From the sequence record NC_048205.1: a stretch of DNA of 64,000 nucleotides, one strand, 5' to 3'. This DNA is from Escherichia phage vB_Eco_mar004NP2. Positions 2,476 to 33,403 of the stretch are shown one piece after another. The position numbers were made by a program, and so were the translations under genes. Within the stretch, counting starts at the first letter, position 1. Every line of letters begins with the position of its first letter. The notes under the pieces were generated by a model. That model was not told where the DNA came from and ran no database searches. It saw nothing but the letters and a program-made list of their open reading frames with translations.

Positions 2476-3172
2476 GGCGTTTTCCTTTTTCTTTATCAAG
2501 CTTCAGGGCGGCCTTAACAGCTTCGTTAATCAACGTAATAATTTCTTCACGAGTCCACTTGTACCCTAGAGATTTTACGTCAACCCCTAACTTTTCTAGA
2601 TGCTTAACAGAGGCCAACTCGTAATTCATATAATGGACGTTCTGTTGTTTGCCTTCCGATAGAAGCCATACACGGTAACAACCAACAGGATTATCCATTG
2701 CTTTTTTGATTTCACCGATACACTGGTATCCAGGAACCCAAACAAGCTCACCAACTGCAAATTCTTCTGCTACAGCATCATCAGGAATAATTGGAGGATT
2801 CAATGGATCTACAATATCGTTCAAACGAAGTAGAGCACCATATCGTTCCAGAACAGATTTAACCATTGCTACAGAGCGGTAATTACGATCGGCAATTTCT
2901 TCAAAAGAATCACCAGATAAATACTGCTCAATAACGTTAGCTAACTCAATGCCTTCAATGAGTGTGCCACGTTTCTTTTTCTTCATTTCGGCAACTTGAA
3001 TCTGGCGGTCTTGCCATTCTTCAATCATTCTTTCCATAGTTGGATTAGATGATACGCCGAGCATTTCACATGCTGCTTTCTTAGTACCACCGTTCTCCAG
3101 ATGCTCTATAACCTTTTTAAAGACTTCATCCGGGATTTCATGGATATGTTTCTTTCTACGAGAACCAGCCAT
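2468..3172 (-). CDS. putative HTH DNA-binding protein
   Basis: N-terminal HTH-like segment (GGTKKAACEMLGVS); strong RBS GAGGAG and N25-like promoter upstream. Confidence 0.65.
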   Translation of the reverse strand: MAGSRRKKHIHEIPDEVFKKVIEHLENGGTKKAACEMLGVSSNPTMERMIEEWQDRQIQVAEMKKKKRGTLIEGIELANVIEQYLSGDSFEEIADRNYRSVAMVKSVLERYGALLRLNDIVDPLNPPIIPDDAVAEEFAVGELVWVPGYQCIGEIKKAMDNPVGCYRVWLLSEGKQQNVHYMNYELASVKHLEKLGVDVKSLGYKWTREEIITLINEAVKAALKLDKEKGKRRE

Positions 3173-24558: not shown

Positions 24559-24630
24559 GCCGTCCTAGTATAATTGGTATTATCAAGCCGTAACTGGTGG
24601 AAGATGTAGGTTCGAATCCTACGGTCGGTA
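24559..24630 (+). pseudogene. tRNA-like element lacking a foldable anticodon arm (possible tRNA pseudogene)
   Basis: Acceptor-like pairing GCCGTCC/GGTCGGT and perfect T-arm GTAGG-TTCGAAT-CCTAC but no anticodon stem; no CCA. Confidence 0.3.
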
Positions 24631-27214: not shown

Positions 27215-27291
27215 GGGGGTGTAATCGAATTGGCATAGGTACTGGACTTAAAATTCAGGTTTTGTGGGTTCGAATCCCACCACCCCTACCA
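27215..27291 (+). tRNA. tRNA-Leu-like, anticodon TAA, type-I length
   Basis: AC stem CTGGA/TTCAG, loop CTTAAAA; Leu-type D-arm (3 bp stem, GAATTGGCATA loop); 5-nt variable loop; A73; CCA. Confidence 0.5.
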
Positions 27292-31973: not shown

Positions 31974-32002
31974 TTGCTTGATACTTAATTTCTTGTTATA
32001 AT
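31974..32002 (+). promoter_or_regulatory. T5-type early promoter followed by hairpin and untranslated segment
   Basis: -35 TTGCTT / 17 bp / -10 TATAAT. Confidence 0.6.
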
Positions 32003-32240
32003 ATTTATATAAATTGATGAGGATTTCTCCTCATCATAGTTCACTAAGGTATTAGCTCGACCTAGGACTGGCTGCCAAAAAGCACGATCCCTACGATTCG
32101 GGAGGAGTTCTAGATTAGTCCACTAGATTCAGCGGCAACTGAATAGTGTATTGGGTTTGCGAGATGACGCGGTTCCTTCCGCTCGAAGCGAAGGTGCTGT
32201 AGTTACGCCGAGCTAATAGCCTTAGTAAACTAAAGAATTT

Positions 32241-32324: not shown

Positions 32325-32401
32325 GCGTGATTGATGGAATTGGCATACATACCGTCCTTAGAAGTCGGGTTTTGAGGGTTCGAATCCCTTGTCACGCACC
32401 A
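32325..32401 (+). tRNA. tRNA-Leu-like, anticodon TAG, type-I length
   Basis: AC loop CTTAGAA; Leu-type D-arm ATG/CAT with GAATTGGCATA loop; short variable loop; A73. Confidence 0.5.
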
Positions 32402-32757: not shown

Positions 32758-32762
32758 TACTT

Positions 32763-32853
32763 GGAAGAGCAAATCGAATTGGCGACGAAAACCGCTTGGA
32801 AAGTGGCTGACTGGTAAAACGGCTTGAGAGTTCAAATCTCTCCTCTTCCGCCA
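32763..32853 (+). tRNA. tRNA-Ser (anticodon GGA), type II
   Basis: Acceptor GGAAGAG/CTCTTCC, AC loop TTGGAAA, long variable arm, T-arm GAGAG/CTCTC. Confidence 0.65.
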
Positions 32854-32865
32854 AACAATTTATAT

Positions 32866-32960
32866 GGTAGGTCAATCCAACGGCTGGCGCTGGACTCCGA
32901 CTTGAAATCGGTTGATCGTAGTGATACGGTGTAAGGGTTCGATCCCCTTACCTACCTCCA
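32866..32960 (+). tRNA. tRNA-Ser (anticodon TGA), type II
   Basis: Perfect acceptor GGTAGGT/ACCTACC, AC loop CTTGAAA, long variable arm. Confidence 0.65.
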
Positions 32961-32965
32961 AATCT

Positions 32966-33096
32966 TGGAATATGCCGGAATTGGTAGACGGGACTGCCGA
33001 ATAGGTTTACTAGGAACATCCACTCCTAGAAATATACCTTAAAAGCGGTTGAGTTAAATGGTCTAACTCATGAAGGTTCAAGCCCTTCTATTCCTT
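32966..33096 (+). pseudogene. tRNA-Leu-like gene (type II) interrupted by about 40 nt in the anticodon loop
   Basis: Acceptor GGAATA/TATTCC, Leu D-arm GCCGGAATTGGTAGACGGG, AC stem ACTGC/GCGGT enclosing 47 nt ending CTTAAAA, hairpin variable arm, T-arm GAAGG-TTCAAGC-CCTTC; no CCA, U73. Confidence 0.3.
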
Positions 33097-33210
33097 GATA
33101 CATCAATGGCTCAAAGTGTAACGGTGCTATTTGATGCTCTTGGAAAGACTTTCCCGACATGCGTTCGGGGGTAAGCTTCTGAGGCTAGAATAGAAGAGTT
33201 TCTGAGAGCC

Positions 33211-33330
33211 GCCACAATTGAAAATTCGTACTCGTCTTGAGCTGCGTGCAATAGGAGATAACTTGATTAGTATTCTAGAACATGCTAATTGAGGATGGTT
33301 TCGCTAACCCTGCGAGTTTTCAATTGTGGC
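33211..33330 (+). other. 18-bp inverted repeat whose 3' arm overlaps the tRNA-His 5' end
   Basis: GCCACAATTGAAAATTCG (33211-33228) vs CGAGTTTTCAATTGTGGC (33313-33330), 17/18 complementary. Confidence 0.55.
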
Positions 33331-33403
33331 TATATCATAATTGGTTAATGATCCTGATTGTGAATCAGGCCTATGTGGATTCGAATTCCACTAGCCACCC
33401 CCA
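33326..33403 (+). tRNA. tRNA-His (anticodon GTG)
   Basis: Acceptor GTGGCTA/TAGCCAC, D-arm TCAT/ATGA, AC stem CCTGA/TCAGG loop TTGTGAA; C-rich 3' tail. Confidence 0.7.

What the first reader, a model, noticed from the sequence alone, without database searches (positions are those of the whole stretch)
32966..33096. Possible type-II tRNA-Leu interrupted by a 40-nt insertion in the anticodon loop
A Leu-type D-arm (GCCGGAATTGGTAGACGGG), a hairpin variable arm, a perfect T-arm and a 6-bp acceptor pairing are all present, but the anticodon stem (ACTGC/GCGGT) encloses 47 nt instead of 7. Removing 32998-33037, which contains the hairpin CTAGGA-ACATCCAC-TCCTAG, would leave a canonical CTTAAAA loop (anticodon TAA). 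This could be a small intron-like or mobile insertion, or a decayed pseudogene; it lacks A73 and an encoded CCA.
Basis: inference. Interest (0 to 1): 0.6.

Follow-up and report, generated by a model that had tools for sequence, protein, structure and literature searches.

The report
T5-family tRNA-like RNA1 gene
This is the gene for "RNA1", a tRNA-shaped small RNA of unknown function found in the tRNA cluster of T5-like phages; its apparent 40-base "insertion" is a conserved, base-paired extension of the anticodon arm, not an intron or gene decay, and the feature is already annotated in T5 and BF23.

Summary
ARAGORN with intron search calls tRNA-Leu(taa) i(33,40) at exactly 32966-33096; default ARAGORN and the Rfam tRNA model miss it. 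The window is Salmonella phage EH4, a T5-like phage.

The same element is already annotated as misc_RNA "rna1 / RNA1, tRNA-like RNA with unknown functions" (144-145 nt). This annotation is in T5 st0 (AY692264), BF23 (AJ604530) and phage 5 (AJ604531), upstream of RNAI, RNAIII and tRNA-His.

About 490 phage genomes carry it (Markadamsvirinae, Sugarlandvirus, Hongcheonvirus). I found no copy without the 40 nt.

The extra arm is under RNA-level selection:
- 14 of 35 pairs show compensatory changes, six of them inside the "insertion".
- The apical loop ACAUCCAC and the variable loop are essentially invariant.
- All tRNA tertiary-contact bases are invariant.

The leftover "anticodon loop" is not conserved. 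In-silico splicing gives Leu(UAA), Phe(AAA) or Val(AAC) depending on the phage. The discriminator is U in every copy. No CCA is encoded, whereas nearly all real tRNAs in the window encode it.

Best reading: a non-decoding, tRNA-scaffolded small RNA whose long arm is the working part. Its function is still unknown. Already known; modest interest.

The parts
32964..33107 (+). RNA1 gene (144 nt) as delimited in T5/BF23/phage 5 GenBank records, transferred to the window by alignment
   Evidence: misc_RNA rna1 'tRNA-like RNA with unknown functions' in AJ604530, AJ604531 and AY692264. Coordinates mapped through alignment A3. Covariance model R1 scores 161.6 bits at 32964-33101.
32966..33096 (+). tRNA-like cloverleaf as called by ARAGORN with intron search: tRNA-Leu(taa) i(33,40)
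32967..32972 (+). Acceptor-like helix, 5' strand GGAATA. It pairs with 33089-33094. Flanking UU/UU and C32964-G33097 may extend the helix.
   Evidence: Four of the 6 pairs show compensatory changes; 97.9% of cells paired.
32975..32991 (+). D arm (3-bp stem CCG/CGG; loop GAATTGGTAGA with G18 G19), Leu type
   Evidence: Invariant in 24 sequences, together with U8, A14, A15 and A21.
32993..32997 (+). P1, 5' strand of the anticodon-stem equivalent (ACTGC). It pairs with 33045-33049 (GCGGT).
   Evidence: Three of the 5 pairs show compensatory changes.
32998..33044 (+). It comprises A-rich internal loop 32998-33002/33040-33044, helix P2 33003-33006/33036-33039, a second internal loop, and helix P3 33010-33015/33024-33029.
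   Evidence: P2 has 2 and P3 has 4 pairs with compensatory changes. 22 of 48 columns are invariant. The thermodynamic centroid fold reproduces it.
33016..33023 (+). Apical loop ACATCCAC. The closing G-C and A-U pairs never vary.
   Evidence: 6 of 8 columns are invariant and all are at least 90% conserved across Markadamsvirinae, Sugarlandvirus and Hongcheonvirus.
33051..33069 (+). Class II variable arm (6-bp stem, 7-nt loop AATGGTC)
   Evidence: The loop is 7/7 invariant and the stem is 100% paired with one covarying pair.
33072..33088 (+). T arm GAAGG-TTCAAGC-CCTTC (T54, T55, C56 and A58 present)
   Evidence: 100% paired; tertiary-contact bases invariant.
33089..33094 (+). Acceptor-like helix, 3' strand TATTCC
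33095..33107 (+). 3' tail TTGATACATCAAT: discriminator-position U, no CCA, ending where RNAI begins
   Evidence: U at this position in all 24 sequences. CCA follows the discriminator in nearly all of the 23 Rfam-level tRNAs of the window (22 of 23 by my reading) but not here.

Best explanation
The locus is the RNA1 gene of T5-like phages. It encodes a non-decoding, tRNA-shaped small RNA.

Shown:
- It has a complete class II (Leu-type) tRNA core.
- Its anticodon arm is replaced by a conserved, irregular helix about 40 nt longer, capped by an invariant 8-nt loop.
- It sits inside the early polycistronic tRNA transcription unit, directly upstream of RNAI, RNAIII and tRNA-His.

Inferred:
- The L-shaped core acts as a scaffold. 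It lets the host tRNA-processing and surveillance machinery (RNase P, RNase E, 3' exonucleases) cut the RNA out and keep it stable, as engineered 'tRNA scaffolds' do.
- The long arm and the invariant variable loop are the working surfaces. They bind a partner, most plausibly a host or phage protein that normally handles tRNA, so the RNA would act as a mimic or decoy.
- It is not aminoacylated and does not read codons.
- It probably arose from a tRNA-Leu(UAA) gene, whose loop sequence CUUAAAA survives as a relic only in the T5/EH4 sequence class.

The partner and the biological role are unknown.
For: Identity:
- The window is 100% identical to Salmonella phage EH4.
- The element is 94.5% identical to T5 over 146 nt.
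- It aligns without gaps to the annotated rna1 of BF23 and phage 5, in the same order: tRNA-Ser, RNA1, RNAI, RNAIII, tRNA-His.

Selection on the RNA:
- 491-496 phage records carry it, and 485 of 491 cover at least 80% of a query that includes the extension.
- All 40 copies recovered among the fetched loci contain the extension.
- 97.9% of cells are paired and 14 of 35 pairs change on both sides, including 2 in P2 and 4 in P3. No shuffle out of 500 reaches this, and slid controls give 2-3.
- The apical and variable loops are invariant. U8, A14, A15, G18, G19, A21, U48, T54, T55, C56 and A58 are invariant.

Not a decoder:
- In-silico splicing gives Leu(taa), Phe(aaa) or Val(aac), with different 'intron' positions in orthologues.
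- In DU_PP_V the internal loop is largely paired, which leaves no anticodon-like loop.
- U73 is present in all 24 sequences, whereas A73 is the crucial E. coli leucine determinant (PMC9976931).
- No CCA is encoded, although nearly all genuine tRNAs of the window encode it.
- The phage already has canonical tRNA-Leu(UAA) and tRNA-Leu(UAG) genes with A73 and CCA.

Other points:
- There is no ORF longer than 34 aa across it.
- No promoter-like site lies between a P13b-like site near 31978-32005 and the locus.
- RNA1 occurs without RNAI/RNAIII in Sugarlandvirus, so it works independently of them.
Against: - No expression, end-mapping or binding data were available here.
- The GenBank notes call RNAI and RNAIII 'stable RNA' but call RNA1 only 'tRNA-like RNA'. 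Its ends may therefore be predicted rather than measured.
- The scaffold and decoy roles are inference from anatomy. No partner was identified.
- Loop complementarity searches gave nothing above chance.
- No Rfam family matches the arm.
- The T5/EH4 class keeps a perfect CUUAAAA loop after removal of 40 nt, and ARAGORN can splice every class in silico, so processing into a tRNA is not formally excluded.
- The tRNA region of T5 is known to tolerate deletions (cited in PMC12483538), so any role is conditional.
Confidence: 0.8

Rival explanations
1. An intron-containing tRNA-Leu(UAA). The 40 nt are removed after transcription, for example by an endonuclease plus host RtcB ligase, to give a working 91-nt class II tRNA-Leu.
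For: ARAGORN -i calls exactly this. Removing 32998-33037 leaves the canonical loop CUUAAAA, and default ARAGORN then calls tRNA-Leu(taa). One GenBank record (JLBYU40) annotates it this way.
Against: - The spliced 'anticodon' is UAA only in the T5/EH4 class. Orthologues give AAA (Phe) or AAC (Val) on the same Leu-type body, with the 'intron' at position 33, 35, 36, 37 or 39. A34 anticodons of this kind are essentially unused in bacteria (general knowledge).
- All 24 sequences have U73, not the A73 needed for leucylation, and none encodes CCA.
- At 40 nt the arm is far too small for a group I intron, and it has no bulge-helix-bulge geometry.
- I found no intron-less allele among about 490 genomes.
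- The 'intron' loop is invariant and its stems covary, which suggests the arm itself is the functional part.
- A canonical tRNA-Leu(UAA) gene already exists at 27215-27291.
Confidence: 0.05
2. A structural punctuation mark only. The tRNA-like fold exists to direct RNase P/RNase E cleavage of the polycistronic transcript, for example to release RNAI and neighbouring tRNAs, and the RNA has no function after excision.
For: It lies in a tightly packed tRNA/small-RNA operon and abuts RNAI. tRNA-like punctuation is an established processing principle (general knowledge).
Against: - A processing signal needs only the acceptor/T-arm and elbow. It does not explain invariant apical and variable loops or a covarying 40-nt arm.
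- RNA1 is retained in Sugarlandvirus without RNAI/RNAIII, in a different flank.
- Neighbouring tRNAs and RNAI have their own acceptor stems and CCA.
Confidence: 0.1
3. A decayed tRNA-Leu pseudogene drifting neutrally.
For: It has no CCA, no A73 and a T-T mismatch at position 1:72. Default detectors reject it. It is left unannotated in most genomes.
Against: Helices keep 97.9% pairing with 14 compensated pairs across three virus lineages, and loops and all tertiary-contact bases are invariant. Flanking non-structured sequence diverges far more.
Confidence: 0.03
4. A recent mobile or repeat insertion into a working tRNA gene.
For: The extra segment contains a near-perfect inverted repeat (CTAGGA...TCCTAG). 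The T5 tRNA region is rich in homing endonuclease genes.
Against: It is single-copy in the window. It is absent from 5,426 E. coli genomes and from 185,579 species genomes beyond chance hits. It is present at the same site, in diverged and compensated form, in all lineages. No uninterrupted allele was found.
Confidence: 0.01
5. A shorter 69-nt tRNA at 33028-33096. This corresponds to the sub-threshold Rfam alignment, the ARAGORN low-stringency call 'tRNA-Stop(tta)', and the 'tRNA-TERM' annotation in one record.
For: Rfam tRNA scores 21.6 bits, E = 0.097. ARAGORN at -ps70 calls tRNA-Stop. One GenBank record, JN-S202001, has a tRNA-TERM feature somewhere under the 701-nt query; I did not check that it lies on this element.
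Against: The score is below the gathering threshold of 29 bits. The alternative acceptor helix is paired in only 54.8% of cells, the same as shuffled (54.3%) and slid controls.
Confidence: 0.01

Closest known systems
rna1 / RNA1 of bacteriophages T5 (AY692264), BF23 (AJ604530) and phage 5 (AJ604531), annotated 'tRNA-like RNA with unknown functions'
   Same: It is the same gene. It is 94.5% identical to T5 over 146 nt, it aligns without gaps to BF23, and the neighbours are the same (tRNA-Ser upstream; RNAI, RNAIII and tRNA-His downstream).
   Different: Nothing material. EH4 lacks the small ORF trn2.14 that precedes RNA1 in T5 and BF23, and the EH4 record leaves the gene unannotated.
Bacterial class II tRNA-Leu
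   Same: The D arm GGAAUUGGUAGAC is Leu type. The 3-bp D stem, A15-U48, G18G19, long variable arm, T loop and acceptor/T coaxial stack are all present and invariant.
   Different: - The anticodon arm is about 40 nt longer, with no conserved 7-nt loop or U33.
- U73 replaces A73, there is no CCA, and position 1:72 is U-U.
- The Rfam tRNA model does not reach threshold.
- The phage's own real tRNA-Leu genes are 77 nt with a short variable loop.
Phage T4 species 1 RNA (rnaC), a stable RNA of unknown function in the T4 tRNA cluster
   Same: Both are small non-tRNA RNAs encoded in a phage tRNA cluster. Both have a canonical T arm and a Leu(UAA)-like pseudo-tRNA module (ARAGORN -i calls tRNA-Leu(taa) i(29,5) in the 3' 94 nt of rnaC). 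The function of both is unknown.
   Different: The architecture differs: rnaC carries a 45-nt 5' extension rather than an extended anticodon arm. The RNA1 covariance model detects no similarity. Homology is not shown.
Engineered 'tRNA scaffold' RNAs: foreign hairpins grafted into the anticodon stem for stable expression in E. coli (Ponchon and Dardel; from my own knowledge, not checked here)
   Same: The design is the same: an intact tRNA core with a payload helix replacing the anticodon loop. This explains how such an RNA can be processed and remain stable.
   Different: The engineered RNAs are artificial. RNA1 is natural and also lacks CCA. The analogy concerns how it works, not family membership.
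Interrupted tRNA genes: the cyanobacterial/plastid tRNA-Leu(UAA) group I intron and archaeal bulge-helix-bulge introns
   Same: There is extra sequence inside the anticodon arm of a Leu(UAA)-like gene.
   Different: - Group I introns are over 200 nt, sit between positions 34 and 35, and have a catalytic core.
- BHB introns need a 3-4-3 bulge-helix-bulge motif and a splicing endonuclease.
- Here the segment is 40 nt, at position 32/33 in this phage and elsewhere in relatives.
- No Rfam intron or ribozyme hit was found and the mature anticodon is not conserved.
tRNA-like modules of tmRNA and bacterial Y-RNA-like YrlA
   Same: These are non-decoding RNAs that borrow tRNA shape (from my own knowledge).
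   Different: tmRNA keeps an aminoacylatable CCA end and lacks a full D arm. YrlA is circularly rearranged, with its ends on the anticodon side. There is no Rfam match to either beyond bare T-arm hits of about 10 bits.

Membership tests
T5-family RNA1 (rna1 misc_RNA of T5/BF23/phage 5) | Sequence homology to the annotated rna1 | tested here: met
   It is 94.5% identical to T5 and aligns without gaps to BF23 and phage 5 rna1. The covariance model built on the family scores 161.6 bits.
T5-family RNA1 (rna1 misc_RNA of T5/BF23/phage 5) | Position in the tRNA cluster: after tRNA-Ser(UGA), before RNAI, RNAIII and tRNA-His | tested here: met
T5-family RNA1 (rna1 misc_RNA of T5/BF23/phage 5) | Expressed as a discrete RNA of about 144 nt | not testable with these tools
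   Only the GenBank annotation is available. No transcript data are held here.
Canonical elongator tRNA (Rfam RF00005) | Reaches the family's curated score | tested here: not met
   No hit at the gathering score. The best sub-threshold alignment scores 21.6 bits against a threshold of 29, and it uses a helix that is not conserved.
Canonical elongator tRNA (Rfam RF00005) | L-shape core: acceptor, D and T arms, and tertiary bases U8, A14, G18, G19, T54, T55, C56, A58 | tested here: met
   All are present and invariant in 24 sequences, and the helices covary.
Canonical elongator tRNA (Rfam RF00005) | 5-bp anticodon stem closing a 7-nt loop with U33 and a conserved anticodon | tested here: not met
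   The stem encloses 47-48 nt. The residual loop reads UAAAA, CAUAAA, GAAAAC or GACGG in orthologues, and ARAGORN assigns Leu, Phe or Val.
Canonical elongator tRNA (Rfam RF00005) | 3' CCA, which is encoded in this phage's tRNAs | tested here: not met
   The sequence after the acceptor is TTGATAC. Nearly all of the 23 Rfam-level tRNAs in the window encode CCA.
tRNA-Leu (bacterial leucine identity) | Discriminator A73 | tested here: not met
   U at the discriminator position in all 24 sequences. A73 is crucial in E. coli (PMC9976931).
tRNA-Leu (bacterial leucine identity) | Leu-type D loop and tertiary framework (A15-U48, G18G19, 3-bp D stem) | tested here: met
Intron-containing tRNA (group I or bulge-helix-bulge type) | Recognisable intron machinery: a group I core of over 200 nt, or a 3-4-3 BHB motif at both junctions | tested here: not met
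   The segment is 40 nt. No Rfam intron or ribozyme hit at E <= 10. The covariation-supported structure has symmetric 5x5/5x6 and 4x7 internal loops, not a BHB.
Intron-containing tRNA (group I or bulge-helix-bulge type) | The same mature anticodon and junction in orthologues, and intron-less alleles exist | tested here: not met
Intron-containing tRNA (group I or bulge-helix-bulge type) | A spliced product is detectable | not testable with these tools
   This needs RNA from infected cells.
Mobile element / repeat insertion | Additional copies, or an empty target site | tested here: not met
   It is single-copy. No E. coli match. Hits in species genomes are at chance level and fail the profile. 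No empty site was found.

The most novel reading that the evidence does not exclude
RNA1 is a natural 'tRNA scaffold' effector. The phage uses an authentic tRNA core to have the host process and stabilise the RNA. The invariant ACAUCCAC hairpin and variable loop then capture a specific host factor, for example a tRNA-directed defence nuclease, toxin or tRNA-handling enzyme. RNA1 would then be an RNA-based counter-defence or host-takeover device, alongside the decoding tRNAs that T5 already uses against PARIS and Retron-Eco7.
Probability: 0.2. Interest if true: 0.65.

Novelty: already known. Interest (0 to 1): 0.3.

Why it matters
The feature itself has been annotated in T5, BF23 and phage 5 since 2004, so it is not a discovery.

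It does have practical value. More than 400 deposited T5-like genomes leave it unannotated or label it inconsistently, for example tRNA-Leu and tRNA-Phe, and possibly the tRNA-TERM feature in one record. That inflates or distorts phage tRNA counts.

The comparative result here gives a concrete handle on a small RNA whose function has never been explained. The arm covaries, two loops are invariant, and there is no conserved anticodon, no A73 and no CCA. T5 tRNA-region products are currently being linked to escape from tRNA-targeting defences, which makes the question timely.

Tried and rejected
1. Searched for an uninterrupted allele with a pattern that does not depend on the insertion (variable arm plus T arm). 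There were 26 IMG/VR loci, all carrying the insertion, and 0 hits in 185,579 species genomes.
2. An apical-loop pattern in species genomes gave 11 hits. That is about the number expected by chance, and all fail the RNA1 profile.
3. My relaxed pattern GGTANACGG...AAYATCCRC on IMG/VR and metagenomes was too loose.
4. Looked for a more distant homologue in Proteus phage PM135 (Novosibvirus). There is none in 18 kb around its tRNA-His, only ordinary tRNAs.
5. Tested homology to T4 rnaC/rnaD with the covariance model: none.
6. Looked for targets complementary to the apical loop. GTGGATGT does not occur on the + strand of the window, and the counts equal chance. The 7-nt matches to 23S rRNA that I recalled from memory are at chance level and were dropped.
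7. The arm has no kink-turn, tetraloop-receptor or T-loop motif by inspection, and no Rfam family at E <= 10.
8. BLAST of the arm and of the in-silico spliced RNA against E. coli genomes found no match.
9. Five literature searches found no paper in the held library that discusses RNA1. The evidence that it is 'known' rests on GenBank annotations.
10. The alternative 69-nt tRNA reading was rejected by covariation.

Full report
**Observation**

- a Leu-type D arm at 32974-32992;
- the stem ACTGC/GCGGT (32993-32997 / 33045-33049) enclosing 47 nt;
- the hairpin CTAGGA-ACATCCAC-TCCTAG (33010-33029);
- a hairpin variable arm (33051-33069);
- a perfect T arm (33072-33088);
- a 6-bp acceptor helix (32967-32972 / 33089-33094);
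- T at the discriminator position and no CCA.

Default ARAGORN finds 21 tRNAs in the window and Rfam finds 23 tRNA hits at gathering score. Neither reports this locus. ARAGORN with intron search calls tRNA-Leu(taa) i(33,40) at exactly 32966-33096, the only such call in 64 kb. After deleting 32998-33037, default ARAGORN calls a 91-nt class II tRNA-Leu(taa).

**Where the window comes from, and what the locus is called**

The region is 100% identical to Salmonella phage EH4 (OR413345), a T5-like member of the Demerecviridae. The 146-nt candidate matches 491 phage records, and most carry no annotation at the site.

Three records from one laboratory annotate it as misc_RNA "rna1 / RNA1", 144-145 nt:
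- BF23 tRNA region (AJ604530);
- phage 5 tRNA region (AJ604531);
- T5 st0 (AY692264).

In all three, RNA1 is followed by RNAI (107 nt) and RNAIII (106 nt), which AJ604530 and AJ604531 note as "stable RNA with unknown functions", and then by tRNA-His.

Alignment A3 transfers these features to the window:
- RNA1 at 32964-33107;
- RNAI at 33108-33214;
- RNAIII at 33219-33324;
- tRNA-His from 33325/33326.

Other depositors labelled the same element tRNA-Leu(taa) (JLBYU40) or tRNA-Phe (JLBYU43). A tRNA-TERM feature in JN-S202001 may be a third label for it. It lies somewhere under the 701-nt query, and I did not check its exact position. The feature is therefore real and already known as an RNA gene of unknown function.

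**Is the 40-nt segment an insertion?**

Homologues occur in three lineages:
- Markadamsvirinae (Tequintavirus, Epseptimavirus);
- Sugarlandvirus (Klebsiella phages);
- Hongcheonvirus (Pectobacterium phage DU_PP_V, subfamily Mccorquodalevirinae).

Evidence that the segment is always present:
- A pattern built only from the variable arm and T arm, and so blind to the insertion, recovered 26 IMG/VR loci. All of them contain the segment.
- With a Klebsiella-phage query that spans the segment, 485 of 491 records cover at least 80% of the query.
- The same insertion-blind pattern has no match in 185,579 bacterial and archaeal species genomes.
- The segment is single-copy in the window and has no match in 5,426 complete E. 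coli genomes.

I found no empty site and no second copy. That argues against a mobile element or a recent insertion.

**Selection on structure**

I aligned 24 distinct sequences (A4) and scored the cloverleaf with the extended arm.
- 97.9% of 840 cells form standard pairs, against 88.3% in shuffles and 41-51% in slid controls.
- 14 of 35 pairs change on both sides. No shuffle out of 500 reaches this, and slid controls give 2-3.
- Compensatory pairs lie in the acceptor helix (4), the anticodon-stem equivalent P1 (3), and the two helices inside the "insertion", P2 (2) and P3 (4).
- The apical loop ACAUCCAC is at least 90% conserved in every column, and the 7-nt variable loop is invariant.
- U8, A14, A15, G18, G19, A21, U48, T54, T55, C56 and A58 are invariant. 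These are the bases that build the tRNA L-shape.
- The thermodynamic centroid of the EH4 sequence reproduces this fold.

A decaying pseudogene would not look like this.

**Is it a decoder after splicing?**

Four observations say no.
- The sequence between P2 and P1 reads UAAAA in the T5/EH4 class. It reads CAUAAA in a second class, GAAAAC in a third (including Klebsiella phages) and GACGG in DU_PP_V, where the internal loop is largely paired.
- ARAGORN -i "splices" the 24 orthologues into Leu(taa) i(33,40), Phe(aaa) i(35, 36 or 37; 41) or Val(aac) i(39,40), all on the same Leu-type body. The call is an artefact of an A-rich internal loop.
- All 24 sequences have U at position 73, whereas A73 is the crucial leucine determinant in E. 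coli (PMC9976931).
- No CCA is encoded, while nearly all of the 23 Rfam-level tRNAs in the window carry CCA right after the discriminator.

The phage also has canonical tRNA-Leu(UAA) and tRNA-Leu(UAG) genes, with A73 and CCA. At 40 nt the segment is too small for a group I intron, it has no bulge-helix-bulge geometry, and it matches no Rfam family at E <= 10. The alternative 69-nt tRNA suggested by the sub-threshold Rfam alignment (21.6 bits) fails covariation: 54.8% paired, the same as shuffled.

**Most likely mechanism**

Shown:
- RNA1 is a conserved structured RNA with an authentic class II tRNA core and a long, irregular arm. From the core outward the arm is: P1; a 5x5 or 5x6 A-rich internal loop; P2; a 4x7 internal loop; P3; and an invariant 8-nt loop.
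- It lies in a polycistronic tRNA/small-RNA unit. There is no promoter-like site of its own and no ORF longer than 34 aa.
- It occurs without RNAI/RNAIII in Sugarlandvirus.

Inferred:
- The tRNA core serves as a processing and stability scaffold. This is what engineered tRNA scaffolds exploit (my own knowledge).
- The arm and the variable loop are binding surfaces for an unknown partner, plausibly a tRNA-handling host or phage protein.
- The perfect CUUAAAA in the T5/EH4 class is best read as a relic of descent from a tRNA-Leu(UAA) gene.

I put 0.8 on "non-decoding tRNA-like RNA with a functional extended arm", and about 0.2 on the specific decoy or effector role.

**Comparison and novelty**

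The element is a member of the T5 RNA1 family: the homology and synteny tests are met. It is tRNA-like but fails the tRNA tests on anticodon loop, CCA, A73 and curated score.

The nearest analogue outside the family is T4 species 1 RNA (rnaC). Its 3' 94 nt are also called a Leu(taa)-like pseudo-tRNA by ARAGORN -i. The architecture differs, and the RNA1 covariance model finds no similarity.

I found no homologue in 18 kb of the tRNA region of Proteus phage PM135. No paper in the held library discusses RNA1.

**Verdict**

The feature is already known and its function is still open. Interest is modest (0.3).

Noticed in passing
window 33108-33214 and 33219-33324: These are RNAI (107 nt) and RNAIII (106 nt), the 'stable RNAs with unknown functions' of T5/BF23, unannotated in EH4. 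RNAI has an acceptor-like 5-bp terminal stem (GGCUC/GAGCC) followed by G-CCA, so it too ends like a tRNA. Both are partly conserved in Pectobacterium phage DU_PP_V.
   Followed up: partly
window 33210-33331: GCCACAAUUGAAAAUUCGUA pairs perfectly with UACGAGUUUUCAAUUGUGGC. This forms a duplex of about 20 bp that ties the 3' end of RNAI, all of RNAIII and the 5' acceptor strand of tRNA-His together in the precursor. It looks like an RNase III-type processing helix.
   Followed up: no
window 32050-32221: This is a homologue (96% identity) of 'RNA 2H', a fourth stable RNA of unknown function (172 nt) annotated in BF23 and phage 5. It lies downstream of a P13b-like promoter site at 31978-32005.
   Followed up: no
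window 32762-32853 and 32866-32960: Two class II tRNA-Ser genes (GGA and UGA, both with encoded CCA) are missed by default ARAGORN and by the Rfam tRNA model at gathering score. They are found only at lowered ARAGORN stringency. The second scores 38.3 bits as tRNA-Sec, which is sub-threshold. They are flagged as pseudo in T5 AY587007 but as real tRNA-Ser in BF23 and phage 5, and the BF23 note says tRNA-Ser2 cannot be converted into an amber suppressor.
   Followed up: partly
window 27215-27291 and 32325-32401: The phage's genuine tRNA-Leu(UAA) and tRNA-Leu(UAG) are only 77 nt, with a 5-nt variable loop. They are class I-shaped leucine tRNAs, whereas RNA1 keeps the long class II variable arm.
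   Followed up: no
window 24559-24630: Rfam calls a tRNA here (35.5 bits) that ARAGORN does not. Unlike nearly all the other tRNAs in the cluster, it is not followed by CCA.
   Followed up: no
window 33392-33402: The tRNA-His 3' end reads GCCACCCCCA in EH4 (five C) but GCCACCCCA in BF23 and phage 5. This is either a homopolymer-length difference or a sequencing error just before the CCA end.
   Followed up: no
L272 (phage T4 NC_000866) 2909-3047, minus strand: T4 species 1 RNA (rnaC) contains a canonical T arm (CCGGGTTCGAATCCCGG) and a 94-nt 3' module that ARAGORN -i calls tRNA-Leu(taa) i(29,5), preceded by a 45-nt 5' hairpin. It is a possible functional analogue of T5 RNA1.
   Followed up: partly
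L008-L010, L018 (Klebsiella Sugarlandvirus phages): In these phages the acceptor-like helix of RNA1 can be extended to about 13 pairs with one G-G mismatch (CGCGUUGAUGCCG / CGGGGUUAGCGUG). It is followed by a GC-rich hairpin GUGGGG-N9-CCCCAC. This suggests that the mature RNA there has a closed, non-aminoacylatable end.
   Followed up: no
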